Positions 49,728 to 60,221 of a DNA stretch of 60,221 nt are shown here, piece after piece. Position 1 is the stretch's first letter. Each line of letters begins with the position of its first letter. Made by a program: the position numbers and the translations under genes. Location: NCBI GenBank assembly GCA_043746635.1, contig JAYTQQ010000160.1, positions 1 to 60,221 of the forward strand, written 5' to 3'. Below the pieces are notes generated by a model. It was not told where the DNA came from. It searched no databases and saw only the letters and a program-made list of their open reading frames with translations. This stretch comes from Bdellovibrionales bacterium (GTDB taxonomy: Bacteria > Bdellovibrionota > Bdellovibrionia > Bdellovibrionales > JAMPXM01).

Positions 49728-51398
49728 CTACTTCTTAATATAATTATAGAATGCCAGAAATCCAAAGAGCGTCGCTAGCAAAAACTGCAAGCCGCTCACG
49801 ATTGGCATATTTGCGATGTAAGGTCCGTGGTCGATGAACAGGGTAAACGAACCCGCAAGAATCAGCGCACCAATGATCAGCCCTAAAAAAACAATGTTAG
49901 AACCAGTTTCGACGGAGCGTTTGAGATCTTCAACCTCTTGAACACTTATCTTTACAGCAAAGTCAGGATGATTTAATTTTCGAATGAGCTGTTTCATTTG
50001 TCTTGGCAAGTTGTAAAGCAAACCGCCAACATCTTGACCAAGTAAAGTGAGGTCTGCCTTCACTTGCTGCGGTTGATAGCGATCTTGAACAATCTCTTTC
50101 GAGAACTCAATCGCGTGTGGGAGTAAATCAAAATCTTTGGCCAGCAAACGACCCATACCTTCAACGGTCACGATCGATTTAAAAAACATCATGAGTTCAG
50201 TCGGAATAACCAAACGATGTTTTGCCGCAATCTGGGTGGTACCCATAAGAAGGCGTCCGAGATCGACGTTTTTCATCGACAGACCAAAGTGAGGAGCTAA
50301 AAGATTTTGAAGATCTCGCGCAAACTCATCAACATCGATCTGGTCATTATAGGGGGCAATCTCGACATATTCATAAGCGAGACGTTCGTAATCTTCGGCG
50401 TAAAGGCATACGAACATATTGGCGATTGCCGATTGGGTACGACGATTGACTCTCCCGACGATTCCGAAATCGACGAGGCCAATCTGATTATTCGGTAGAA
50501 TAAATAAATTACCGGCATGGAGGTCGCCATGAAAAAGTCCGTCGCGAAAAACCATTTTGAAATAAGTGCGAACTCCGATACGCATCACTTCAAGAGGATC
50601 AACTCCCTCTTGCTTGACCGAAGCGGGTTGACTCAGCGGAATACCTTTGAGCATCTCTAGAACGAGAACTCGCTTGCCCGAATATTCAAAATACACTTTT
50701 GGAATTTTAACCGAAGGATCGTTCTTAAAATTCTCGGTAAATCGACGAATATTATTCGCTTCGATAACGAAATCGGTCTCGAGTTCGAGATTTTTGAAAA
50801 ATTCGTCAACGATGCCGACGGGGTTAAAGGGTCTTGTCTCGGGTACGTAGTTTTGTAAAAGATCAGCTATGAAGTATAAAATGCCGATGTCGTTTTTGAT
50901 AACTTCGACGATTCCGGGGCGTTGAACTTTTACGACAACGTCAGTGCCGTCGAGTAATTTTGCGCAGTGCACTTGCGCGATACTCGCGGCCGCAAGCGGA
51001 TGGGGATCGAGCTCTAAGAAAACATTCTTAATTGGAGTATTAAATTGGCGTTCGATCACTCCTTCGATTTTATCAAAGCTAATCGTAGCCACTTGGTCAT
51101 GCAGCTTTTTAAATTCGTCGACAAACTCTTCGGGTATTAAATCAGGACGAGTTGCTAAGAGTTGTCCGAGTTTAACGAACGTAGGTCCGAGTTCTTCAAA
51201 ACACATTCGAAGACGCTCGGGCGCAGAATATTTATCAACATCAATTTGGGTAAAACGCTCGAGAAGAAAACGGCCGAGCTTAATCTTTTCGGCGACGTTT
51301 TGGAAACCGTTTCTTGCGAACACGGCCACGATCGTCCTCATCCTTGCCGCGTTTTTTAGTGTGTTCCCCAGGCGTCTCGGACTTCTCTTGCTGGCCAC
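49728..51398 (-). CDS. ubiB: ABC1/UbiB-family atypical kinase
   Basis: ELGPTFVKLGQLLATRPDL...AAASIAQVHCA...VVKVQRPG...HGDLHAGNLF...VDFGIVG, with two C-terminal TM helices. The start is uncertain: 51398 or Met-20 at 51341. Either overlaps the rnr 3' end. Confidence 0.9.
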   Translation of the reverse strand: MASKRSPRRLGNTLKNAARMRTIVAVFARNGFQNVAEKIKLGRFLLERFTQIDVDKYSAPERLRMCFEELGPTFVKLGQLLATRPDLIPEEFVDEFKKLHDQVATISFDKIEGVIERQFNTPIKNVFLELDPHPLAAASIAQVHCAKLLDGTDVVVKVQRPGIVEVIKNDIGILYFIADLLQNYVPETRPFNPVGIVDEFFKNLELETDFVIEANNIRRFTENFKNDPSVKIPKVYFEYSGKRVLVLEMLKGIPLSQPASVKQEGVDPLEVMRIGVRTYFKMVFRDGLFHGDLHAGNLFILPNNQIGLVDFGIVGRVNRRTQSAIANMFVCLYAEDYERLAYEYVEIAPYNDQIDVDEFARDLQNLLAPHFGLSMKNVDLGRLLMGTTQIAAKHRLVIPTELMMFFKSIVTVEGMGRLLAKDFDLLPHAIEFSKEIVQDRYQPQQVKADLTLLGQDVGGLLYNLPRQMKQLIRKLNHPDFAVKISVQEVEDLKRSVETGSNIVFLGLIIGALILAGSFTLFIDHGPYIANMPIVSGLQFLLATLFGFLAFYNYIKK

Positions 51399-53841
51399 TC
51401 ACTTGCCCTTTTTTCGAAGCGTACTTCTTCGACTTGTCATACTTTTTCTGTTTTTTTGAATCGTTTCGATCATCTGGTTCTTTTTCAGTATCGTCCGCCT
51501 GAAGTTTAAAATCAATCTTTCCGGCCTCGATGTCAACGCCAGTGACAAAAACTTGGATCGGGTCGCCGATTTTGAATTTTGCTTTGGTGCGTGAGCCCAA
51601 AAGCAGAAGCATTTCTGGATCAAAAGTGAAACGGTCATCACCTAAATTTTCTACTTTAACTAAGCCATCGACATCAAAGGCTCTCAAGTTCACGAAAATC
51701 CCGAAGCGGGCGACGGAGCTGATAACTCCATCGAATTTTTCGCCAACAAATTTCTGCATGAAGCGGGCTTTTTTAATCGATACGAGTTGGCGCTCGGCCT
51801 TCACGGATCTCTGTTCGCAAGCGCTGAGCATACTCGACGCGGTGGCGAGTTGATCGTCGTTTAAGGCCCAGCTTTTGTATTTAGGCATCAGCATACTTTT
51901 TAATAAGCGATGCGCGATCAAATCAGGATAACGGCGAATCGGAGAAGTAAAATGCGAGTAATGAGAAAAGCCTAATCCAAAGTGGCCTAGGTTTTGCGAA
52001 CTGTACTTCGCTTGGTTCATGGCCCTCAAAGTCAGCATACTTAAAATCTGCTGCTCGGGTTTGCCTTTAAAGCTTTCGAGTGTCTTTGAAATTTTCGTCT
52101 GAAGACGATCTTTTCCGGTGAGAGAATTTTTAGCTCCAAAGTTCCATAAGAATTTTTGAAGATCGGCAATTTTTTCTTCGTTGGGTTCTTCATGAATACG
52201 GTAAATACCCGGTATGTTTTTTTCGCCCAGAAAACGACCGACCGAAACGTTTGCGGCAAGCATGAGTTCTTCAATCAAGCGGTGAGCGAAAAGTCGTTCC
52301 GATTTAATGATGTCAACCGGTTCTCCCGCCTCGTTGACAATGACTTGAGTCTCCGGAATTTCGAGATCGAGTGAACCTTCGCGAAACCTTTTGGCCATTA
52401 AAATCTTGGCGATGTCTCGGCAATTTTTGATATTGCTCTCAATGTGATTCAAATGACTTGGAGTTTTGCCATCCAGAATTTCTTGAGCTTGGCCGTAGGT
52501 GACGCGGGCTTTTGATTCCATGACGGCTTCATAGAAATCGTGACTAAAAATGTTTCCTTGAAAATCCATCTGCATTTCACAAACAAAACAGAGCCTCGCA
52601 ACTTTGGGCTTCAGAGAACATAATTCGTTCGACAAAGCCTCTGGTAACATTGGCACCACAAAATTAGGAAAATAAACGCTTGTCCCTCGTTCGTAAGCAT
52701 CGTCATCGATTGAAGATCCCGGCTCAACGTAATGACTGACGTCCGCGATAGCGACCCAAACTCGAAAGCCTTTGCCATCGATTTCGGTGTAGACGGCGTC
52801 ATCGAAATCTTTTGCAGTTGCTCCGTCGATGGTGATGAGATTTTTATCGCGAAGATCAACTCTTCCGGCGATATCTTTTTCACTGACGTAAGGAGAGAAG
52901 GCCTTAGCTTGCTCTAAAGCCTTCGGCGAAAATTCAAAAGAAATATTATGCAAATGAATCACGCGGGTAATATCGTTTAGTGGATCTTCGGAGTCTCCGA
53001 TGATGCTGACAACATGGCCCGTGAAATCTTGATTGCGACCCGGGTAGCTCGTGATCTCAACGACCACGATTTCGCCTTCTTTTGCTCCCATAGAATCTTC
53101 GGTACGAATACGTAAGTCGGATCCCCAATGGCGATTTTCATCGAGAATAACTCCGTATTTCACGTCGACTGGCAAAAACTTGCCGACAACTTTTTTAACT
53201 GCGCGAGCAAGAATCTCAACAACTTCTCCAGAAAGACGTTCTTCATTTCTTGATTTATGAACGATGACGCGAAGGCGATCATTGGTCATAATTGAGGTCA
53301 TAAACTGTCTTGAAATATAGACATCGGGATGTTTTGGATCGTCAGGAATGAGAAAGCCATAGCCATCGGGATGACACTTAATAATGCCTTCAACGTATTT
53401 GAGTCCGTCGAGATGCTTATTCTGAACAACTTGAATTTTATCTTCTGTTGGACGCTTTTGATTCGAACTCGGTTTTTTAAAAGTCGGCTTAGAGGTATTC
53501 GACTTTGTCTGTGTTGGTTTCGGCGCATTCGTCGAGGGAGAAGATGAAATAGAAAATGTTGGTCTCGGTGCGAGTTTAGCCATGAGGCCGCCGATGGCAC
53601 TTTTGCCTTTTCCACCTAGGGAACTCAAGGTTCTGACGGAGCTCGAAGATTTAATTCCTTCTCGTAAGGTATTGCCGATGGGCTTGGCACTTCCGCGAGA
53701 AAAAGTTTCGGATGATTCTTTGCGATCGTTTTCAGAATTCGCTTTTCGAGAATCATTTCGTGATGGATTGTGTTCAGACTTGCCTGAATCTGAACTCTGG
53801 TTGCGCGACTTTTTGCTGCCCTTGCGATGAGGTTTCTTCAT
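51280..53841 (-). CDS. rnr: ribonuclease R with long basic low-complexity N- and C-terminal extensions
   Basis: Cold-shock/OB region, RNB core (ITIDGATAKDFDDAV...VYFPNFVVPMLPE...HFGLGFSHYSHFTSPIRRYPDL), S1 domain (FDGVISSVARFGIFVNL), Lys-rich tail. Confidence 0.93.
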   Translation of the reverse strand: MKKPHRKGSKKSRNQSSDSGKSEHNPSRNDSRKANSENDRKESSETFSRGSAKPIGNTLREGIKSSSSVRTLSSLGGKGKSAIGGLMAKLAPRPTFSISSSPSTNAPKPTQTKSNTSKPTFKKPSSNQKRPTEDKIQVVQNKHLDGLKYVEGIIKCHPDGYGFLIPDDPKHPDVYISRQFMTSIMTNDRLRVIVHKSRNEERLSGEVVEILARAVKKVVGKFLPVDVKYGVILDENRHWGSDLRIRTEDSMGAKEGEIVVVEITSYPGRNQDFTGHVVSIIGDSEDPLNDITRVIHLHNISFEFSPKALEQAKAFSPYVSEKDIAGRVDLRDKNLITIDGATAKDFDDAVYTEIDGKGFRVWVAIADVSHYVEPGSSIDDDAYERGTSVYFPNFVVPMLPEALSNELCSLKPKVARLCFVCEMQMDFQGNIFSHDFYEAVMESKARVTYGQAQEILDGKTPSHLNHIESNIKNCRDIAKILMAKRFREGSLDLEIPETQVIVNEAGEPVDIIKSERLFAHRLIEELMLAANVSVGRFLGEKNIPGIYRIHEEPNEEKIADLQKFLWNFGAKNSLTGKDRLQTKISKTLESFKGKPEQQILSMLTLRAMNQAKYSSQNLGHFGLGFSHYSHFTSPIRRYPDLIAHRLLKSMLMPKYKSWALNDDQLATASSMLSACEQRSVKAERQLVSIKKARFMQKFVGEKFDGVISSVARFGIFVNLRAFDVDGLVKVENLGDDRFTFDPEMLLLLGSRTKAKFKIGDPIQVFVTGVDIEAGKIDFKLQADDTEKEPDDRNDSKKQKKYDKSKKYASKKGQVSGQQEKSETPGEHTKKRGKDEDDRGRVRKKRFPKRRRKD

Positions 53842-53975: not shown

Positions 53976-54062
53976 GCCCAGGTGGTGGAACTGGTAGACA
54001 CGCGTGGTTCAGGTCCACGTGTTCGAAAGAACTTGCAGGTTCAAGTCCTGTCCCGGGTACCA
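53976..54062 (+). tRNA. tRNA-Leu (anticodon CAG), class II with a long variable arm
   Basis: Folded by hand: acceptor GCCCAGG/CCCGGGT (one A:C mismatch, one G:U pair); D arm GTG-GAACTGGTAGA-CAC; anticodon stem CGTGG/CCACG with loop TTCAGGT; variable arm GTTC-GAAA-GAAC; T arm GCAGG-TTCAAGT-CCTGT; encoded ACCA end. Confidence 0.92.
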
Positions 54063-55723
54063 AATGTCAAAGTATTCGAACCTAAATTTCTAGATAATTT
54101 TGCACCGTGCCCACCCTTATCACCTAAGGAGTGGGCAGTCTTTTTTAAAGCGATTTCTCTCTGATAATGGTCGTTATCGACAATATAATGGATCTTAAAT
54201 GAGTTGATCCCCACTTCAATCTTTCGCACGAATTTCTGCGCTAGTTGCTTCTTTTGCGTGATGTCTAAGCTTTGAGTTACAAGCTTGCGATAGTTGGACG
54301 CAAAATTCTCAAATGTATCCAATCCGACGATTCGACTTAGACTTCCGACTCCTTCATTTTTAAACTTCAGTAGTGTTTCTTCGTTGTCTTTATTAATGAG
54401 TTGTAGCTTCTCCAATTGTTTATAAATTGGAGCTGCCGAGACGCCTTTAGGAAGTTCAGAGAGACGCTCAGAGAGAGCATCGATCTGGCTTGAGACGCCG
54501 CTGATTTTGGCCTTAAATCTTTCGGCTTCTTTGAGTTTTGGATTTACTTCATGTCGCGACTTCACCTTCACGAGCATACGCCTGACAAATTCTTCGTCAT
54601 TTAAAAATTCAGCGAGTTTGGCCCAAGCCGCAGGCTCTAGCTTTTTTGCGGCAACACGGTGTGGTTCACATTCAAAAAGTTTTTTTGTTAGCGTTGAATC
54701 TCGTTTTGTCGCCCAGGCGTGTTCGTAATAACCAACCTTCGAGGTATTTCCGGTTGCAGACTTTCCAACCATATTGCTACCACAGCTTTGACAGACCACT
54801 AGGCCAGAAAAGAGGTAGGGCATTCGACCTTTTTTATGTGGCTTGTAGCGTCTTCGATTTTTATCGAGCATCTGACCGGCACGAGTAAAAGTAACCTCGT
54901 CGATGATCGGTTCCCAAACAGCCTTCGACTCCTTTTTCTCTCCTTTATGCTTATACGCTTTGATGCCGAGATAAGCTTTGTTACGAAGCATTGCTTGAAG
55001 ATTGTCGACTGTGAAGTGACCGATTCGCTTGAACCTTCCACCGCTTTCCGTTTCTCGCTTTAAAGAGTAACCGTTACTATTAAGCCAAAGAGCTGCATGA
55101 GAAAGACATCCTTCTCGAATGAACGTCGTAAAGGCTGCTCGCACGAGCTCGGCCATCTTTGGCTCAATCTCTAAGAAGCCGGGCTTATCTAAGATCTTTC
55201 GGTATCCGATCGGAATCATTCCACCGTTGTAGAGTCCACGATTTGCGCGGGCGGCGAGATTGGCTTCGACCCGCTCTGAAGTCTGCTTTCTTTCAAATTG
55301 AGCGAGATTCATCAGTTGAAACAGAACCATTTCACCAGCCGCAGTTGTCGTATCAAAATCTTCTCTAAGACTCGAAAACATGCAGCCGTGCGCTCGCATA
55401 AGGTCCCACATTTCAACGAAATCCCTAATGCTGCGAGAAAGACGCGAAATCTCCGTTACCATGATGAGATTTATTTCGCCGCTTCTTATGGCGCGAAGCA
55501 ACTCTTGAAGTTTTGGCCTACGCATGTCTTTTGCCGAAATACCGGCATCCGTGTAGATGCCACAAATCTCGCCGAAAGAATTCATTCGATTTTTATAATC
55601 GACGGCTTGCCTAAGACGATCTTCTTGATTTCTGATGGAGCCTTCAGGATTTTCGGCCTGTTCCTCGGTACTGACTCGGATATAAAATCCAATTTTGAAT
55701 TTTATATTGTTTTTATTATGCAT
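54041..55723 (-). CDS. large serine recombinase (integrase)
   Basis: Resolvase catalytic domain (IGFYIRVSTEEQ...ISRLSRS), recombinase domain, zinc ribbon (CQSCGSNMVGKS...YYEH), coiled coil. ATG at 55723. The last 6 codons plus the stop are antisense to the tRNA-Leu 3' end. Confidence 0.9.
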   Translation of the reverse strand: MHNKNNIKFKIGFYIRVSTEEQAENPEGSIRNQEDRLRQAVDYKNRMNSFGEICGIYTDAGISAKDMRRPKLQELLRAIRSGEINLIMVTEISRLSRSIRDFVEMWDLMRAHGCMFSSLREDFDTTTAAGEMVLFQLMNLAQFERKQTSERVEANLAARANRGLYNGGMIPIGYRKILDKPGFLEIEPKMAELVRAAFTTFIREGCLSHAALWLNSNGYSLKRETESGGRFKRIGHFTVDNLQAMLRNKAYLGIKAYKHKGEKKESKAVWEPIIDEVTFTRAGQMLDKNRRRYKPHKKGRMPYLFSGLVVCQSCGSNMVGKSATGNTSKVGYYEHAWATKRDSTLTKKLFECEPHRVAAKKLEPAAWAKLAEFLNDEEFVRRMLVKVKSRHEVNPKLKEAERFKAKISGVSSQIDALSERLSELPKGVSAAPIYKQLEKLQLINKDNEETLLKFKNEGVGSLSRIVGLDTFENFASNYRKLVTQSLDITQKKQLAQKFVRKIEVGINSFKIHYIVDNDHYQREIALKKTAHSLGDKGGHGAKLSRNLGSNTLTFGTRDRT

Positions 55724-55928
55724 CTGTTCCCGTTCTTTCTGCCGCAAGCGGCGTTAAAAGTTCGGGAGCTAAGATTTTTTTCTCGGAGAGCTGGCAGAAA
55801 TAACTATACACAAGGTCTGTCCACTCATCAAGAATTTGTTCATATTCTTCTTCGCGAACCTGAAAATATTCGACTTCAATTTTTTCAAAAGGCGCGACAA
55901 AACGTGTGCGACGTTTGGGTTTACGCAA
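55716..55928 (-). CDS. small hypothetical protein translationally coupled to the recombinase (RDF or regulator candidate)
   Basis: 70 aa with a TTG start. Its stop overlaps the recombinase start in the octamer ATGCATAA. Confidence 0.4.
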   Translation of the reverse strand: MRKPKRRTRFVAPFEKIEVEYFQVREEEYEQILDEWTDLVYSYFCQLSEKKILAPELLTPLAAERTGTDA

Positions 55929-55986
55929 TGAATTGCTCCAATATTAAATTGTTTGAAACGAAAATTTTGAGTGAGGACGTAATGCT

Positions 55987-56469
55987 TTAAATAGGCTCAG
56001 GGGCGGAGAGATTGTCTTCAGGTGAAGTCGCAGATTTTTTTAGACGCCTTCGCTTTAACGTCTTGGACTGGACCGCGTTCGACGTATGATTTATTTTGTC
56101 TGTAACTGCGAGCTCAACGCTTCGAAGTTGAGCCTGTAACTCAGCCACACGGGCTAAATTCTTGTCGGCCAGCGCAAGTTTTATTTGCGGCGTGATCCAG
56201 GCGATATGCTTGAGCGGATCGTAATTTTCCGTACGAATCTGCAAACATTCTTTTGGTAAAAACTCGTCTCTATGGGCACGAATCAAAAAGTTAACGACAT
56301 CAGATCTGCTTAGGGACAGAAAGCCTTTTGATGACTTTTTAATTTGAGCAATCCAAGAATCGAGTTTGTCGCACTCAGCTTTACCAAGACTTGCTCGTTC
56401 AATTTGCTTCGAGGACTTTACTGCTTTTTCATGCCCATCAATATTCATAGGGCCGGTTACCGACTCCAT
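55987..56469 (-). CDS. hypothetical element protein
   Basis: The ATG at 56469 has AGGAGA 4-5 nt upstream. 160 aa with a basic C-terminus (KTLKRRRLKK). No family recognised. Confidence 0.45.
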   Translation of the reverse strand: MESVTGPMNIDGHEKAVKSSKQIERASLGKAECDKLDSWIAQIKKSSKGFLSLSRSDVVNFLIRAHRDEFLPKECLQIRTENYDPLKHIAWITPQIKLALADKNLARVAELQAQLRSVELAVTDKINHTSNAVQSKTLKRRRLKKSATSPEDNLSAPEPI

Positions 56470-56684
56470 GTTGTCTCCTGCTCGATCCGGTACATGTTGT
56501 GGCCTTCGACCCACTCACGGCCGCCGCTGCGAATCTCAGGAGGAATGAAAATCTTCTTTACTGTGGGCTTTAGTAGTTTCGGCTGCTCAGTCTGTGAGGG
56601 CTCCGTCGGTTTTGTTTTATTGAAAGAAGCGCATCCGCTGAGCTCAAGACAAAGTAGCAGGACAATCAATTTAATTGAACGCAT
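56457..56684 (-). CDS. small lipoprotein of the element
   Basis: MRSIKLIVLLLCLELSG-C lipobox. AGGAG lies 6 nt upstream of the ATG. 75 aa. Confidence 0.5.
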   Translation of the reverse strand: MRSIKLIVLLLCLELSGCASFNKTKPTEPSQTEQPKLLKPTVKKIFIPPEIRSGGREWVEGHNMYRIEQETTWSR

Positions 56685-56747
56685 GACTAACTCCTAAATG
56701 GTTGAAATAGAATTTAAGAAATTTTTGAAAAATCAAAGCTGAAGAAG

Positions 56748-56787
56748 TGAAATAAAAAGGCCTGAAAAGTGAGAATGCAATTCAGGC
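56748..56787 (-). terminator. rho-independent terminator after the 299-aa gene
   Basis: Perfect 7-bp stem GCCTGAA-(14 nt)-TTCAGGC, followed on the minus strand by CTTTTTATTT. Confidence 0.6.
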
Positions 56788-56850
56788 TCGAGATACGAAT
56801 TTTTGAATGAGATATACGGGGGCATACTCAGTTATGAATTGAGTCCGGGA

Positions 56851-57750
56851 TCAAGTTCGAGAAGGCCTTGATTTTCCAAGGACTTTGTTTGGGTCGTAAT
56901 GGACGTTAAACATTGCAGTTCCCTGTATATCTCCAATATATTTCCCGTATGGGTCACCTATCAATCCCCTTATATTCTCTCGAATAGTGAATAGGTTATC
57001 TGACCGATCGTTCTTTATGTGAGCATCCCACCCAAGCTTGAGATAATCCTTCAAGTCCACAAATAGATGATAGTTTGGCGAATCATCTTTACTACAGGCT
57101 TTTGCGGTGAGAATTTGATCCTTCACCTTCTGATTTCCGACCAACCAGTATACTCGGTCGACATTTCGAATCATCTTGTAAAACCTGATGATCGACTCGT
57201 ATCTCGCAACACTCTTGGCGGTAAGTTCAATCTCATAGGCGAGTACCCATTGCTTACGATCGGACTCAATCAAAGTATAACCGTCTGACCTATGGTCGTT
57301 GATCTGTGGCACCCAAGGAGGGTAATATTCCACTGACCTTCGCCTTAGTTCTTGTTCAGTAAAAAACTGAACATTTGAAAACTTGTACTTTGACCATTCA
57401 CCTAGGTGAAATGCCAAGACGTTACGATCATGCCACCAATTTTCAGATAAGTAACCTTCTTCTGTAAGTTCACCAAGGGATTCTCGAATAGTGTTAAAAC
57501 CTAAATCAGTGAGATGCCAGGCTGTGAAGCGGTATTGTTTGCTCGATGTTGCTTCGACCAAGTCATGACGGGCTAGTCGTTCCAATGCCTTGTAAGCTGA
57601 GTACGCTGAGCCTGGTTTGACAACAGCTTCATAAACGGAGGCTGTGGATGCAATTTTCCATCGCCATAAGAAATGCATTATTTCCGTATCGCGATCGCTC
57701 ATATAAAAGCAATTGCCACGAAAGCGATTCGCACTTTTTGCGTCACTCAT
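56851..57750 (-). CDS. winged-helix protein, possibly replication-relaxation family
   Basis: N-terminal wHTH-like segment (DTEIMHFLWRWKIASTASVYEAVV...AYKALERLARHDLVE). It sits next to an FtsK-type ATPase, as in replication-relaxation modules. The call rests on pattern recollection only. Confidence 0.35.
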   Translation of the reverse strand: MSDAKSANRFRGNCFYMSDRDTEIMHFLWRWKIASTASVYEAVVKPGSAYSAYKALERLARHDLVEATSSKQYRFTAWHLTDLGFNTIRESLGELTEEGYLSENWWHDRNVLAFHLGEWSKYKFSNVQFFTEQELRRRSVEYYPPWVPQINDHRSDGYTLIESDRKQWVLAYEIELTAKSVARYESIIRFYKMIRNVDRVYWLVGNQKVKDQILTAKACSKDDSPNYHLFVDLKDYLKLGWDAHIKNDRSDNLFTIRENIRGLIGDPYGKYIGDIQGTAMFNVHYDPNKVLGKSRPSRT

Positions 57751-57784
57751 TTCATACCTCGTAATATTTTAAGATTTTAAAGTT

Positions 57785-59143
57785 TCAAGAAAATTTGTAG
57801 GTTTGGATTTCTTCGAGCTTGGGTCCGAACTTCCAAACTGCACGACCCTTAATTTCCGGATTGAGCTCAAAGGCTCTCTTGGTTCCAAGTGCCGCAACAC
57901 TCGATGCTTGATTCGCCATTGGAAAGCAAAGCACTCCTGGTAAATTCGACTTAACGGTTTGATCAAAACTAGAAGAATCTGGCTTTTGAGTTGCGACAAT
58001 AAGGTGAATGCCTGCGGCGCGGCCCTGACGCGCAATTCGATTAGCTGCGGCCTTTGCTTTTACGACCATTTCTTTATCGAGGCCAGGTTCAGTAGAATAA
58101 AGCTGTGCCATTTCATCAATGAAAATATAGGTTCGCTTTTCAGTAGTGGTCCTCTTCTCGAATGGACCAGCACTTCTCTTGAGCTGAGCCTTGAGGTACT
58201 GATCAAAATCACTTACGCCAAGATTTTTAAAGGTATCAAGTCTAGTCGCAAGTTCTGTACCGAGTCTTGTAAGTTCGGCAATGGAAGCAGCCGACCCCTC
58301 ATGGTAGCTAATATTGTCATGCATATTATCGATTCGGGATTTAAGATCAGAACTCTCCATGCCGCCTTTAAAATCTAGAAAAATAATTTGAGCTTCTTTG
58401 TTGTTGCTTGAAACAATCGACGACGCCATTTTCATAAAATTGGATTTCCCGCCGCCTGATTGACCCGCAACTAAAATGTGCGCAACATCTCTGATGTTAA
58501 CCTTGATTGGCCCTTGGTGACTTAGTCCAATCGGAATATCGCCGTCGGCATACTGCTCGGGGTTTTCTAACAAGGCGACTTTGTCGAGGTCCTTGGTAGT
58601 GTATAGGATCTCAATTTTACTTTTATCACCATCTTCTTGATACATTTTCACGATTGAGAAATTTAAAACATTCTCAAGTTTTTCACGAGCAGTATTGAAT
58701 TCCGAAAGAGTAATGCCGTGAGTTTTAAGCTTTAGGCATCTTAAATGTTCATCAACCTCGATATCCTCAACAAGGGCCGGGTATTTGCCAACGCATTTTA
58801 GTTTTGCCGCCTCAAAGGCTACTTTGAGCTTTTCAAGAACAGAATTTCGCTCAACGACTCGAACCATCCCCCAAACCAGCCAGCCAGAGAACAACAGAAA
58901 GTATTCAAGAAAACTTCGCATAGATCCTGTTACGTGAGAGCTTTTACCAAAGAGTCCGAGAACCCATTGATCAAATCTCAGGTGGAGTAACAACGACGTA
59001 GCGATTCCAGCATAACAATATTTGTGCGCGGGAATTCTGTCCTTACAAACGCCCATCACAATTTCTTTTATTGCAGTCCATAAAAACTTCCATACATAGG
59101 TAATTCGGTCGAGATAATCAAAATTTCCAATTGGTTCATTCAT
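57785..59143 (-). CDS. FtsK/SpoIIIE-family DNA-translocase-type coupling ATPase
   Basis: N-terminal TM helices, Walker A VAGQSGGGKSNFM, Walker B YIFIDEMAQL, FtsK signature GRAAGIHLIVATQKPD. I use the ATG at 59143 (MNEPIG...), which overlaps the upstream stop in ATGAATGA. Confidence 0.8.
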   Translation of the reverse strand: MNEPIGNFDYLDRITYVWKFLWTAIKEIVMGVCKDRIPAHKYCYAGIATSLLLHLRFDQWVLGLFGKSSHVTGSMRSFLEYFLLFSGWLVWGMVRVVERNSVLEKLKVAFEAAKLKCVGKYPALVEDIEVDEHLRCLKLKTHGITLSEFNTAREKLENVLNFSIVKMYQEDGDKSKIEILYTTKDLDKVALLENPEQYADGDIPIGLSHQGPIKVNIRDVAHILVAGQSGGGKSNFMKMASSIVSSNNKEAQIIFLDFKGGMESSDLKSRIDNMHDNISYHEGSAASIAELTRLGTELATRLDTFKNLGVSDFDQYLKAQLKRSAGPFEKRTTTEKRTYIFIDEMAQLYSTEPGLDKEMVVKAKAAANRIARQGRAAGIHLIVATQKPDSSSFDQTVKSNLPGVLCFPMANQASSVAALGTKRAFELNPEIKGRAVWKFGPKLEEIQTYKFS

Positions 59144-60050
59144 TCTTAGATCCTTCTTTCTTTTTTGGTTCATCGAATAATAAATAAAACTCTGTTCCCC
59201 GTTTGACTTCGATAATGTTCGGAGCATTTTTCATTTCGTCCATATAACTTTGACTTTGATCGAGAGCTGCTTTTGACGTCCCACTTAAGGCAGCGTCTCT
59301 CAGTGAGCGCTTCCGTTCGTAGGCAAACATTGACCCACTGGTGTCTTGTAGGCCATCGGCCATACCACCAAGAAGTCCGAAGCCCATTGCCGCCGCCATT
59401 TTTTTGCTTTTGGTTCCAACAAACGAACCCTTTAAACCTTGAATCTTGTCGGAGAGATCAAAGGCCTGGGCTCTAATCGGAATACTTTCGCCATTTGGAA
59501 AAATCACTTTTGTGAATTCAACAAAAAGTCTCTCCTCCGTTGATTTGCCGCTTCCAAATAGTGTTGCGTGCTCAGGGATCAATCTCTCACCATCGACAAT
59601 AATGGGAGATGTCAGTTTCGCTTTGACGATTCCGTTTGTGGCGCCACTTTCCAAAATGGCCATTGCTTCACTTCCGACTGGGATCTCACTCGCACCGCTT
59701 AGAGAAAAAACCCTTATCCCACCCAGAGCTGAGACTTTGACAGGCACTTTTTTGATGCGATTAATGAGATCTTGCTCGGTCTGAATTTTAGAGTCGATAA
59801 CAGGCAAAACACTTGAGATAGCTGGAGTCGAAAATTCTTTCGACCGCAAGTCGTTCAAATCCGATCTTTTGCTAAAAAATATGAAAACACCAATCAGACA
59901 TGCTGCGGGTAATGCCATACCCTTTGCAAATTTTGAGTTGAGTGTAAACTTAAAGCCGTTCCAACTCCTAAAGTACGAGCTCTGTCCCCAACGGTAAGTC
60001 TTGCCCAGTCGTTCAATGAAAACTTCTGTGGGTTTAGTTTCTTCATTCAT
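59136..60050 (-). CDS. VirB10/TrbI-like conjugal transfer protein
   Basis: Bitopic (TM helix ACLIGVFIFF). C-terminal block GSEAMAILESGATNGIVKAKLTSPIIVDGERLIPEHATLFGSG...RLFVEFTKVIFPNGESIPIRAQAFDLSDKIQGLKGS resembles the VirB10 beta-barrel domain. ATG at 60050. Confidence 0.55.
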   Translation of the reverse strand: MNEETKPTEVFIERLGKTYRWGQSSYFRSWNGFKFTLNSKFAKGMALPAACLIGVFIFFSKRSDLNDLRSKEFSTPAISSVLPVIDSKIQTEQDLINRIKKVPVKVSALGGIRVFSLSGASEIPVGSEAMAILESGATNGIVKAKLTSPIIVDGERLIPEHATLFGSGKSTEERLFVEFTKVIFPNGESIPIRAQAFDLSDKIQGLKGSFVGTKSKKMAAAMGFGLLGGMADGLQDTSGSMFAYERKRSLRDAALSGTSKAALDQSQSYMDEMKNAPNIIEVKRGTEFYLLFDEPKKKEGSKNE

Positions 60051-60221
60051 CAAACTTCACCTGGAACTGTGACTCCTTCGGATCTCTTACAATAAGAATA
60101 TCGTCGCCGTGCGATTTAACAGCGATCAAATCAAAGGCACACCTACGCTCATCAAGGTACACAACGACGTTTGTGTGACCATCAGGTTTGAGAGCCTTGA
60201 TGATCAAATCGTTTTTGATTT
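60043..60221 (-). CDS. C-terminal fragment of a possible VirB9/TrbG-like protein (5' end off the window)
   Basis: Own translation: ...IKNDLIIKALKPDGHTNVVVYLDERRCAFDLIAVKSHGDDILIVRDPKESQFQVKFDE*. Beta-rich with a T-N-V-V-V...F-D-L pattern. Its stop overlaps the next start in ATGAATGA. Confidence 0.3.
   Translation of the reverse strand, partial: IKNDLIIKALKPDGHTNVVVYLDERRCAFDLIAVKSHGDDILIVRDPKESQFQVKFDE

What the first reader, a model, noticed from the sequence alone, without database searches (positions are those of the whole stretch)
53976..60221. Integrative conjugative-type element at tRNA-Leu with an unusual module mix
Directly after tRNA-Leu(CAG) the strand bias flips to an unbroken minus-strand block. 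It holds a large serine recombinase, a coupled 70-aa ORF, a 160-aa ORF, a lipoprotein, a replication-relaxation-like wHTH protein, an FtsK/SpoIIIE-type ATPase with TM anchors, a VirB10/TrbI-like protein and a VirB9-like fragment. FtsK-type translocases with replication-relaxation proteins are typical of Gram-positive elements, whereas VirB9/VirB10 are diderm T4SS envelope parts. tRNA-adjacent integration is usually the domain of tyrosine integrases, not serine integrases. No canonical relaxase is visible in the part within the window. The element continues past 60221, so any cargo is unseen.
Basis: partly seen in the sequence, partly recalled or inferred. Interest (0 to 1): 0.7.

Follow-up and report, generated by a model that had tools for sequence, protein, structure and literature searches.

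The report
Conjugative element beside tRNA-Leu, Bdellovibrionota
The block after tRNA-Leu is a real integrated conjugative element from a widespread, apparently undescribed family in predatory Bdellovibrio-like bacteria, and it pairs a Gram-negative DNA-transfer channel with a motor protein, a candidate DNA-nicking enzyme and a serine integrase that are not normally seen together.

Summary
tRNA-Leu(CAG) at 53976-54062 is followed by an unbroken minus-strand block. It encodes a large serine recombinase, a coupled 70-aa ORF, a 160-aa ORF, a lipoprotein, a winged-helix protein, an FtsK-type ATPase, VirB10/TrbI and a VirB9-like fragment.

On the parent contig the block continues with VirB8/6/5-like genes, VirB4, TraL, a TrbC pilin, sigma-r4-like regulators and a sensor module. 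It spans at least 18.2 kb and the far end is not assembled.

The same backbone occurs in more than 20 Bdellovibrionota loci, with tyrosine or serine integrases swapped in at the same position. This is an ICE family.

- **Relaxase:** the winged-helix protein is a remote MOB_C (Replic_Relax) relaxase candidate. It combines a wHTH with a restriction-endonuclease-like domain.
- **Coupling protein:** the FtsK-like ATPase is TcpA-family. The literature confines that family to Firmicutes systems.
- **Recombinase:** it belongs to a clade of more than 100 members. Their 3' coding end carries a conserved DNA motif, an inverted T-arm mimic, that abuts tRNA 3' ends. The ORF finishes in antisense tRNA.

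Verdict: a new variant of a known kind, of moderately high interest. Transfer, nicking and excision are inferred, not shown.

The parts
53976..54062 (+). tRNA-Leu(CAG). Its 3' end forms the host-side (B) half of the junction with the element.
   Evidence: ARAGORN. The same tRNA lies next to RNase R in three related MAGs.
54037..54087 (.). Candidate attL. It comprises the tRNA T-arm and acceptor 3' strand (54037-54062) plus the conserved 25-nt element-side motif AATGTCAAAGTATTCGAACCTAAAT (54063-54087). On the recombinase strand this motif reads GGTTCGAATACTTTGAC. The crossover is inferred to lie about 5 nt inside the tRNA 3' end, near 54057-54058.
   Evidence: At 0-2 mismatches the motif was found only beside tRNA 3' ends in 1.38 Mb of loci, plus one displaced copy beside the 27-nt tRNA fragment in L013. 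GTTCG always starts 19 nt from the tRNA end, in 5 loci at 4 different tRNAs. The tandem array L132 shares only TTGGTGCCC between its two junctions. An alternative crossover at 54087 follows from the L012 breakpoint.
54041..55723 (-). Large serine recombinase of 560 aa. Its last 6 codons and stop lie in the antisense of the tRNA. The 8 codons before them (GSNTLTFG) translate the conserved att motif.
   Evidence: Pfam Resolvase + Recombinase + Zn_ribbon_recom. RVSTEEQ motif. NCBIfam nearest families are CcrB and XisF. The clade has 120 homologues at 52% identity or more, and 105 of 121 carry the tail motif.
55716..55928 (-). 70-aa ORF translationally coupled to the recombinase. It is a candidate directionality or accessory factor.
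   Evidence: It overlaps the recombinase start by 8 nt. tblastn found it only in the window's element and L014. Similar small ORFs sit directly upstream of the serine recombinases in L078 and L080 and L128, L131 and L132. It has no family hit. The function is inferred.
55987..56469 (-). 160-aa conserved backbone protein of unknown role, possibly a relaxosome accessory protein.
   Evidence: It is conserved in position in most loci of the family. It has no family hit.
56457..56684 (-). 75-aa lipoprotein, a VirB7/TrbH/TraV-like candidate.
   Evidence: Lipobox LSGC. Weak hits to TrbH (E=0.007) and TraV (E=0.04). It is conserved in the family.
56851..57750 (-). 299-aa protein with a winged helix and a PD-(D/E)xK-like nuclease domain. 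It is a remote MOB_C (Replic_Relax) relaxase candidate.
   Evidence: The AlphaFold model has pLDDT 91. The N-terminal domain matches MarR/MecI folds. The C-terminal domain's best matches are BamHI, FokI, MspJI and BsaWI, all weak, with E about 0.03. Invariant residues are D156, E173, E175 and K179. NF041423 MobC_subf gives E=4.5e-5 over residues 152-213. 23 of 47 relatives hit it, best 2.8e-10. The gene sits immediately after the coupling ATPase in 21 of 22 loci.
57785..59143 (-). TcpA-family (FtsK-like) coupling ATPase of 452 aa.
   Evidence: Pfam FtsK_SpoIIIE, with no VirD4-type domain. The best solved relative is pCW3 TcpA (6o1w/x/z) at E=7e-21, against FtsK at 8e-11. NCBIfam nearest families are EssC, EccC, TraB and FtsK.
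59136..60050 (-). VirB10/TrbI-like protein of 304 aa with an N-terminal transmembrane segment.
   Evidence: Pfam TrbI 78.8 bits, above cut-off, and Transposon_TraM 31 bits. Transmembrane segment at residues 41-59.
60043..60221 (-). C-terminal part of a short (126 aa) VirB9-like protein. The gene runs off the window end.
   Evidence: Translation. The full protein comes from the parent contig. CagX gives E=8e-4 and TIGR02781 VirB9 gives E=1.2e-5, both below the curated cut-offs. Its position between the VirB8-like and VirB10 genes is conserved.

Best explanation
This is the tRNA-proximal 6.2 kb of an integrated conjugative element at least 18.2 kb long. It belongs to a conserved family in Bdellovibrionota.

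Proposed working (the gene content is shown; the steps below are inferred):
1. A large serine recombinase, perhaps with the coupled 70-aa protein, recombines the element with the 3' end of a tRNA gene. The host half-site is the T-arm and acceptor strand. The element half-site is an inverted T-arm mimic lying inside the recombinase's own 3' coding end. The crossover is about 5 nt inside the tRNA, and the element restores the tRNA's last bases.
2. After excision, the 299-aa winged-helix/restriction-endonuclease-like protein acts as a MOB_C-type relaxase at an unidentified oriT.
3. A TcpA/FtsK-like ATPase acts as coupling protein in place of VirD4.
4. DNA leaves through a compact VirB-like channel for a two-membrane envelope. 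Its parts are a TrbC pilin, TraL/VirB3, VirB4, a VirB5-like secreted protein, a 6-TM VirB6-like protein, a bitopic VirB8-like protein, a short VirB9, VirB10 and a lipoprotein. There is no VirB11.
For: **Gene content and domains:**

**Parent contig:** the window is positions 5500-65720 of a 77.7-kb contig. The T4SS genes continue beyond 60221.

**Family:** the same gene order is seen in 21 of 22 loci of 6 kb or more that encode the 299-aa protein. The VirB4 has 674 relatives at E<=1e-5, and the 120 best listed are all 50-69% identical over full length or more. Where a source names the organism, it is Bdellovibrionales, Pseudobdellovibrionaceae or Oligoflexia.

**Mobility:**
- The integrase position is filled by a tyrosine integrase in 16 loci. 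It sits at tRNA-Asp, at tRNA-Leu(TAA) or at no tRNA. It is filled by a serine recombinase in 5 loci.
- At this same RNase R-tRNA-Leu site, one related MAG is occupied (L014). One has only a 223-bp recombinase remnant (L013). One has no recombinase within 0.6 kb (L012).

**Relaxase candidate:**. PMC5357655 equates PF13814 with MOB_C. PMC12857230 states that MOB_C TraX has an N-terminal winged helix and a restriction-endonuclease-type active site.

**Coupling protein:**

**Attachment site:**
Against: - The far end of the element is not assembled. Both assemblies stop at the same place, so neither attR nor the element's size is known.
- No excised circle or clean empty site was seen. L012 keeps the 25-nt element-side motif.
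- The relaxase link is far below the curated cut-offs (22.9 bits against 200). The fold matches are weak, with E about 0.03 and TM about 0.3.
- No oriT was found.
- The VirB3, VirB5, VirB6, VirB8 and VirB9 calls rest on below-threshold hits, topology and gene order.
- No mating-pair-formation typing (CONJscan) or phylogeny could be run.
- All sequences are metagenomic. No transfer has been observed.
Confidence: 0.8

Rival explanations
1. The block is a decayed or domesticated element. On this view it is a chromosomal type IV secretion locus that no longer excises or transfers, or one that serves another purpose such as protein secretion or DNA release.
For: Remnants occur at this very site in relatives (L013, L012). 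Insertion sequences hit the recombinase tail elsewhere (L128). No excision product was seen, and the far end is missing. There is no compositional contrast with the host.
Against: Every backbone ORF is intact and tightly packed, with overlapping starts. The catalytic serine and the Walker motifs are present. Two independent assemblies give identical proteins. The backbone is conserved at 30-75% identity across many loci with swapped integrases and different sites, which requires recent mobility in the family.
Confidence: 0.12
2. The crossover lies 25 nt downstream of the tRNA, near 54087. On this view L012 is a true empty attB, a 40-bp imperfect palindrome ATGTCA...TGACAT. The conserved motif and the last 15 recombinase codons would then be host DNA.
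For: Identity between the window and L012 is 100% over 42 bp and stops exactly 25 nt past the tRNA. The L012 flank has no ICE similarity and no ORFs.
Against: The same motif, at the same 19-nt spacing, follows four different tRNAs in distant genomes. It is encoded at the C-terminus of 105 of 121 recombinase homologues. At 0-2 mismatches it was found nowhere away from a tRNA 3' end or a displaced tRNA fragment in 1.38 Mb. That fits an element-borne site, not host flanks. In the tandem array L132 the two junctions share only TTGGTGCCC, inside the tRNA end.
Confidence: 0.2
3. The 299-aa protein is not the relaxase. It could be a repressor or a defence or partition nuclease. DNA processing would then be done by a gene in the unseen part or by a helper element. 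Alternatively, the FtsK-like ATPase moves double-stranded DNA as Streptomyces TraB does.
For: The HMM and fold evidence is below threshold. The winged helix resembles MarR/MecI repressors. The solved TcpA structure resembles FtsK, and double-strand transfer has been suggested for it (PMC12857230). NCBIfam also lists plasmid TraB among the ATPase's matches.
Against: The below-threshold MobC hits fall on the invariant acidic core and recur in 23 of 47 relatives, down to E=2.8e-10. The gene is invariably next to the coupling ATPase, the usual relaxase position. No other relaxase-like protein is present in the 18 kb seen. A full VirB4-based channel is present, unlike TraB systems.
Confidence: 0.2

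Closest known systems
Firmicutes MPF_FA conjugation modules with a TcpA coupling protein (pCW3, Tn916, ICEBs1)
   Same: The coupling ATPase is FtsK-like and is closest to pCW3 TcpA among solved structures. The gene order is compact: coupling protein, relaxase, small ORFs, integrase.
   Different: Those systems occur in single-membrane bacteria. They lack VirB9 and VirB10 and almost always pair TcpA with a MOB_T (Rep_trans) relaxase (PMC3548315). Here the host has two membranes, VirB9-like and VirB10 genes are present, and the relaxase candidate is MOB_C-like.
MOB_C relaxases (pAD1 TraX, CloDF13 MobC; Pfam Replic_Relax PF13814; NCBIfam NF041423)
   Same: An N-terminal winged helix plus a restriction-endonuclease-type catalytic domain. 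Below-threshold matches fall on the catalytic core (PMC12857230).
   Different: It scores far below the family cut-offs. tblastn finds no plasmid-borne relative. The motif is D...ExE...K, as in BamHI, rather than a clear (D/E)xK. In streptococcal elements MOB_C pairs with VirD4 and never with TcpA (PMC5357655).
Minimal VirB/VirD4 (type IVA, MPF_T-like) systems of Proteobacteria
   Same: The gene order is pilin, VirB3-like, VirB4, VirB5-like, VirB6-like, VirB8-like, VirB9, VirB10, coupling protein. TrbC and TrbI score above the Pfam cut-offs.
   Different: There is no VirB11, VirB1 or VirD4. VirB4 scores best against the F-type TraC model, and the VirB3 analogue against TraL. VirB9 is only 126 aa.
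Large-serine-recombinase islands (SCCmec Ccr, the Anabaena XisF element, streptococcal IMEs and ICEs with serine integrases)
   Same: The domain architecture is the same. CcrB and XisF are the nearest named families. A small coupled upstream ORF is present.
   Different: The target is the 3' end of tRNA genes, which is normally the territory of tyrosine integrases. The element-side half-site lies inside the recombinase's own coding end. The reading frame is closed by antisense tRNA sequence.
tRNA-targeting tyrosine-integrase islands
   Same: The integrase gene sits at the tRNA-proximal end. Sister elements of this same family use tyrosine integrases at tRNA-Asp and tRNA-Leu(TAA).
   Different: The enzyme family is different, and there is no long direct repeat of the tRNA 3' end.

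Membership tests
Integrative conjugative element (ICE) | A site-specific recombinase at one end, next to the integration site | tested here: met
   A serine recombinase abuts the tRNA-Leu 3' end.
Integrative conjugative element (ICE) | A VirB4-based type IV secretion system plus a coupling ATPase | tested here: met
   VirB4/TraC of 800 aa lies just beyond the window. The TrbC, TrbI and FtsK_SpoIIIE proteins are present.
Integrative conjugative element (ICE) | A relaxase | tested here: inconclusive
   Only a remote MOB_C-like candidate is present. No other relaxase is seen in the 18 kb available.
Integrative conjugative element (ICE) | Two defined boundaries (attL and attR) | tested here: inconclusive
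   attL is located to within 0-26 nt of the tRNA end. The contig ends before attR.
Integrative conjugative element (ICE) | Variable presence among related genomes, or the same element at other sites | tested here: met
   L014 is occupied, L013 holds a remnant and L012 lacks the recombinase. The backbone occurs at other tRNAs and at non-tRNA sites.
Integrative conjugative element (ICE) | Excision and transfer | not testable with these tools
   This needs read-level junction analysis or mating assays.
Large serine recombinase (integrase) | Resolvase + Recombinase + zinc-ribbon domains with a catalytic serine | tested here: met
   All three Pfam domains score above cut-off. The RVSTEEQ motif is present.
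Large serine recombinase (integrase) | att sites that are imperfect inverted repeats around a central dinucleotide, with no long attL/attR repeat | tested here: inconclusive
   No long repeat was found. The T-arm and its mimic sit at 24 and 19 nt from the tRNA end. The reconstructed L132 attP is most symmetric inside the shared 9-mer, at 12 of 26 positions, which is modest. Symmetry scans of attL were uninformative.
TcpA-family coupling protein | An FtsK/SpoIIIE ATPase domain closer to TcpA than to FtsK or VirD4 | tested here: met
   FtsK_SpoIIIE at 60 bits, with no VirD4-type Pfam hit. TcpA gives E=7e-21 against FtsK at 8e-11, and TrwB is not matched.
TcpA-family coupling protein | N-terminal membrane anchor | tested here: inconclusive
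   There are two moderately hydrophobic stretches, at about 47-65 and 79-97, with Kyte-Doolittle scores of 1.1-1.4.
TcpA-family coupling protein | Placement inside the TcpA clade in a phylogeny, or a match to the CONJscan t4cp2 profile | not tested
MOB_C relaxase (Replic_Relax PF13814 / NF041423) | A match to the family model at its curated cut-off | tested here: not met
   NF041423 scores 22.9 bits against a cut-off of 200. PF13814 is hit by 1 of 47 relatives at E=0.009 and by 1 of 10 distant relatives at E=0.0013. Below-threshold hits occur in 23 of 47 relatives, best 2.8e-10.
MOB_C relaxase (Replic_Relax PF13814 / NF041423) | An N-terminal winged helix plus a PD-(D/E)xK-type catalytic domain with conserved acidic residues | tested here: met
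   The models have pLDDT 91 and 89.5. MarR/MecI folds match the N-terminus. Restriction endonucleases are the top matches for the C-terminal domain, though weak. D156, E173, E175 and K179 are invariant.
MOB_C relaxase (Replic_Relax PF13814 / NF041423) | Site-specific nicking at a cognate oriT | not testable with these tools
   No oriT was identified. This needs biochemistry.
MPF_FA (the Firmicutes TcpA-using transfer apparatus) | A single-membrane apparatus without VirB9/VirB10 outer-membrane core proteins | tested here: not met
   TrbI/VirB10 scores above cut-off and a VirB9-like protein is present. The hosts are Bdellovibrionales.
VirB/VirD4-type (MPF_T) system | VirB2-VirB11 plus a VirD4 coupling protein | tested here: not met
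   VirB2, VirB4 and VirB10 are met. VirB3 and VirB9 are below threshold. VirB5, VirB6 and VirB8 rest on topology and gene order only. No VirB11 or VirD4 is present in the 18 kb seen.

The most novel reading that the evidence does not exclude
Bdellovibrionota carry a so far unclassified conjugation system. In it a TcpA/FtsK-type motor and a MOB_C-like nuclease feed a stripped-down two-membrane VirB channel. That would break the rule that TcpA coupling proteins are confined to Firmicutes. The system is inserted by a large clade of serine integrases specialised for tRNA 3' ends. Their element-side site is a T-arm mimic embedded in the integrase's own coding end, so the integrated and excised forms encode different C-termini, with the stop codon donated by the tRNA T-loop.
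Probability: 0.4. Interest if true: 0.8.

Novelty: new variant of a known kind. Interest (0 to 1): 0.65.

Why it matters
**Conjugation classification.** Current schemes state that all Gram-negative T4SSs use VirD4-type coupling proteins. They also state that TcpA is restricted to a subset of Firmicutes systems paired with MOB_T relaxases (PMC3548315, PMC12857230, PMC5357655). A widespread family that joins a TcpA-like motor and a MOB_C-like nuclease to a VirB9/VirB10 channel would need a new class. It would also bear on whether TcpA-type motors move single- or double-stranded DNA across two membranes.

**Gene flow in predators.** The family is a candidate route of gene flow in predatory bacteria that are being developed as living antibiotics.

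**Genome engineering.** Serine integrases that recognise the near-universal tRNA T-arm would be attractive tools, because suitable landing sites would already exist in most genomes.

Tried and rejected
- **Direct repeats of the tRNA junction as attR.** No repeat of 12 nt or more exists in the 16 kb of the element held in L001 and searched. TGGTAC sites inside the element fall in coding regions.
- **Exact-protein look-ups of RNase R for an empty site.** Only the same element was found.
- **L012 as a clean empty attB with a 40-bp palindrome.** This was first favoured. It was demoted once the 25-nt motif proved family-wide and element-linked.
- **tblastn of the 299-aa protein against plasmids.** Only one chance-level hit was found.
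- **Fetching CloDF13 MobC for a direct profile comparison.** The record's annotation and reading frames were unusable.
- **The 22-bp palindrome upstream of the sigma-like gene as a conserved oriT or operator.** It is not conserved in other loci.
- **The tRNA-Asp 3' repeat as the far end of the sister element L048.** None was found within 20 kb.
- **Viral contigs for close recombinase relatives.** All were 41% identical or less over the best segment and uninformative.
- **Symmetry scans of attL.** These were uninformative.
- **Recombinase homologues lacking the tail motif as possible excised forms.** One (P0420) has an ISL3 insertion in the tail. Another (P0416) ends 30 nt before a contig end. 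Others look truncated.
- **Literature searches for a described Bdellovibrio ICE of this type.** Nothing was found in the open-access library.

Full report
**1. What is in the window**

ARAGORN finds a single tRNA, tRNA-Leu(CAG), at 53976-54062 on the + strand. From 54041 to the window end every sizeable ORF is on the minus strand.

Pfam gives these assignments:
- The 560-aa protein (54041-55723) has Resolvase, Recombinase and Zn_ribbon_recom, all above the curated cut-offs. It also has the RVSTEEQ catalytic-serine motif.
- The 452-aa protein (57785-59143) hits FtsK_SpoIIIE at 60 bits. Walker A and B motifs are present.
- The 304-aa protein (59136-60050) hits TrbI at 79 bits.

Other features:
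- The 70-aa ORF overlaps the recombinase start by 8 nt.
- The 75-aa ORF has a lipobox.
- The last fragment (60043-60221) is the C-terminus of a 126-aa protein with below-threshold VirB9/CagX matches.

The strand bias does not flip at the tRNA, because UbiB and RNase R just upstream are also on the minus strand. G+C does not change across the junction.

**2. Extending the sequence**

The window is positions 5500-65720 of a 77,743-bp metagenomic contig. A second assembly carries identical proteins.

Beyond 60221 the operon continues with these genes:
- a bitopic 183-aa protein, VirB8-like by topology and position only
- a 305-aa protein with six hydrophobic segments, VirB6-like
- a 223-aa protein with a signal peptide, VirB5-like by position
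- an 800-aa VirB4 (TraC-F-type model 3e-90, VirB4_CagE 2.5e-59)
- a 104-aa TraL/VirB3-like protein (E=4e-6)
- a TrbC/VirB2 pilin, above the Pfam cut-off
- three small ORFs and two sigma-70-region-4-like proteins

Further upstream lie a histidine kinase, a YcaO-like protein, an SBP_bac_5 protein, an 80-aa protein and the C-terminus of an NtrC-type regulator. The contig ends there.

A sister element (L048) has the same sensor module in the same place. The element therefore runs past the contig end, is at least 18.2 kb long, and has an unseen far boundary.

**3. It is a mobile family**

The 299-aa protein has 48 close relatives. Where a source names the organism, they come from Bdellovibrionales, and none has a Pfam domain. 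A full HMMER scan finds 1,280 cluster representatives. The VirB4 has 674 relatives at E<=1e-5, and the 120 best listed are all 50-69% identical over full length or more.

I annotated 22 loci of 6 kb or more by tblastn with this element's proteins. In 21 of them the order is conserved: TrbC, TraL, VirB4, p223, p305, p183, VirB9, TrbI, TcpA-like, 299-aa protein, lipoprotein, p160, integrase.

The integrase slot varies:
- Sixteen loci have tyrosine integrases. Three sit at tRNA-Asp with an HTH_17 excisionase-like gene, three at tRNA-Leu(TAA), and the rest next to no tRNA.
- Five loci have serine recombinases: the window's element and L014 at tRNA-Leu(CAG), L074 at tRNA-Val, L078 at tRNA-Glu and L080 at tRNA-Ala.

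At the RNase R-tRNA-Leu site itself, three related MAGs (RNase R 85-86% identical) differ:
- L014 is occupied by the same recombinase at 82% identity.
- L013 retains only 223 bp of the recombinase 3' end.
- L012 has no recombinase within the 0.6 kb available.

The genes are not fixed at the site.

**4. The 'missing' relaxase**

AlphaFold models of the 299-aa protein are confident, with pLDDT 91 for the whole protein and 89.5 for the C-terminal 199 residues.
- The N-terminus is a winged helix of MarR/MecI type.
- The best PDB matches of the C-terminal domain alone are all PD-(D/E)xK nucleases: BamHI, FokI, Cap4, MspJI, BsaWI and PaqCI. The scores are weak, with E about 0.03 and TM about 0.3.
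- The family has invariant D156, E173, E175 and K179 on the expected strands. This D...ExE pattern is like that of BamHI, which I recall from my own knowledge.

NCBIfam's 'MobC family replication-relaxation protein' model hits residues 152-213 at E=4.5e-5. It also hits 23 of 47 relatives, the best at 2.8e-10. All these hits are far below the curated cut-off.

PF13814 Replic_Relax is the MOB_C relaxase family (PMC5357655). MOB_C TraX has an N-terminal winged helix and a restriction-endonuclease-type active site (PMC12857230). The protein therefore works like, and is probably remotely related to, MOB_C relaxases. Formal membership is not established. Its gene sits immediately after the coupling ATPase in 21 of 22 loci.

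**5. The coupling protein**

The ATPase has no VirD4-type domain. Its best solved relative is the pCW3 'DNA translocase coupling protein' TcpA (6o1w/x/z) at E=7e-21. FtsK follows at 8e-11, and TrwB is not matched. NCBIfam lists EssC, EccC, TraB and FtsK.

Published surveys make three relevant statements:
- TcpA homologues are found only in Firmicutes and almost always with MOB_T (PMC3548315).
- The VirD4 family includes the coupling proteins of all Gram-negative T4SSs (PMC12857230).
- TcpA never accompanies MOB_C in streptococcal elements (PMC5357655).

Here a TcpA-like protein sits where virD4 normally sits. It lies after a VirB10 gene that scores above cut-off, in a two-membrane host, and next to a MOB_C-like gene.

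**6. The serine recombinase and the tRNA**

The recombinase ORF ends inside the antisense of the tRNA, with its stop at 54041-54043. It has 120 listed homologues at 52% identity or more.

The C-termini of these homologues follow a pattern:
- 105 of 121 end with G-S-x-(T/S)-L-T-x-G followed by a variable tail.
- 68 stop exactly five codons after that glycine.
- About 60 different five-residue tails are seen.

The tails are antisense translations of tRNA 3' ends. TGG is the antisense of CCA, and ACT-TGA is the T-loop antisense that supplies the stop.

At the DNA level the motif is GGTTCGAATAnnTTGAC.
- Its GTTCG starts 19 nt from the tRNA end in the window, L014, L128, L080 and L074, which cover four tRNA species.
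- At two mismatches or fewer it occurs only beside tRNA 3' ends in 1.38 Mb of loci, plus one displaced copy beside the tRNA fragment in L013.
- It is an inverted mimic of the tRNA T-arm, GGTTCRA, which by tRNA geometry starts 24 nt from the 3' end.

Conservation across hosts and tRNAs implies that the motif belongs to the element. It would be the P' half-site, and the peptide motif is its translation.

In L132 a second element has inserted at a tRNA-Leu(TAA) that was already occupied by another serine-recombinase island. Its two junctions share only TTGGTGCCC, which covers the last 8 nt of the tRNA plus one base. That 8-mer occurs nowhere else in 21.7 kb. The reconstructed attP is most symmetric about a centre 5 nt inside the tRNA, although the score of 12 of 26 positions is modest.

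A centre 5 nt inside the tRNA would put the T-arm motif at 19 nt on the host side and the mimic at 24 nt on the element side. This matches the 5-bp register difference between attB- and attP-type half-sites described for serine integrases, which I recall from my own knowledge.

I therefore favour a crossover near 54057-54058, with the element restoring the tRNA's last bases. The alternative is a crossover at 54087 with L012 as a clean empty site. It rests on the exact 25-nt homology breakpoint and is kept as a rival at about 0.2. On the favoured model L012 is a solo half-site or remnant.

A small ORF directly upstream of the recombinase recurs in the serine-recombinase loci examined. tblastn similarity to the 70-aa ORF was found only in L014. 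It is a candidate directionality factor, by inference only.

**7. Mechanism: shown and inferred**

Shown:
- the gene content
- conserved synteny
- integrase swapping
- site polymorphism
- the tRNA-linked recombinase tail motif
- TcpA-type and MOB_C-like affinities

Inferred:
- excision and integration at the tRNA 3' end
- relaxase activity of the 299-aa protein
- the coupling role of the TcpA-like ATPase
- the channel roles of the unmatched small proteins
- control by the sensor and sigma-like modules

Nothing here shows transfer.

**8. Novelty and score**

Searches of the open-access library found no description of this family or of a Bdellovibrio ICE of this kind. Absence from that library is not proof of novelty.

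Each part belongs to a known kind: ICE, large serine recombinase, TcpA, MOB_C, VirB. What is new is the combination, the host phylum and the tRNA-directed serine integrase with a self-embedded attachment half-site. I rate it a new variant of a known kind, with interest 0.65.

Noticed in passing
L013 860-1351 (related MAG, same RNase R-tRNA-Leu site): A 223-bp remnant of the recombinase 3' end is followed by a 27-nt copy of the tRNA-Leu 3' end, then 180 bp of unrelated DNA, then the intact tRNA. This is the signature of a later insertion into the same tRNA that has since been mostly deleted.
   Followed up: partly
Beyond the window: L010 4811-4865 (window-extended coordinates 67380-67434): A perfect 22-bp palindrome, TTTTGACGAGATCTCGTCAAAA, with an imperfect second copy 28 nt downstream, lies in the 359-bp gap upstream of the sigma-r4-like gene. 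It may be an operator or oriT. It is not conserved in sister elements.
   Followed up: partly
Beyond the window: L010 1-4626; also L048 2321-7877: A sensor module sits upstream of the transfer genes in two elements. It comprises an NtrC-type regulator, an 80-96-aa protein with a signal-peptide-like N-terminus, an SBP_bac_5 peptide-binding protein, a YcaO-like protein and a histidine kinase. It may provide peptide-signal control of transfer, which recalls the pheromone-binding proteins of pAD1-type plasmids.
   Followed up: no
L071 1936-4880; L128 2219-5635; L131 2905-6320: L071 has the relaxase-like protein, lipoprotein, p160 and a tyrosine integrase but no T4SS or coupling gene. L128 and L131 have unmatched small ORFs (147-152 aa, 260-264 aa, 64 aa) and a serine recombinase of this clade, also without T4SS genes. 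They may be mobilizable derivatives of the family.
   Followed up: no
L128 5600-7023: An ISL3-family insertion sequence sits in the variable linker of a homologous recombinase, just upstream of the conserved tail motif and tRNA-Leu(TAG). It truncates the protein.
   Followed up: yes
L132 6795-11759 (3.9-Mb contig, GCA_963852775.1): Two different large serine recombinases lie in tandem at one tRNA-Leu(TAA). Each has a small upstream ORF and neither has T4SS genes nearby. The inner recombinase also ends against what looks like the displaced tRNA 3' end.
   Followed up: partly
window 51280-53841 (-): RNase R has long Lys/Ser-rich N- and C-terminal extensions. The longest ORF is 853 aa and the called gene is 767 aa, so the start is uncertain. 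The UbiB gene overlaps its 3' end by about 120 nt.
   Followed up: no
Contig end (window-extended coordinate about 72244): Two independent assemblies of this population break within about 70 bp of each other, inside the NtrC-like gene. This suggests a repeat or strain variation at that point in the element.
   Followed up: no
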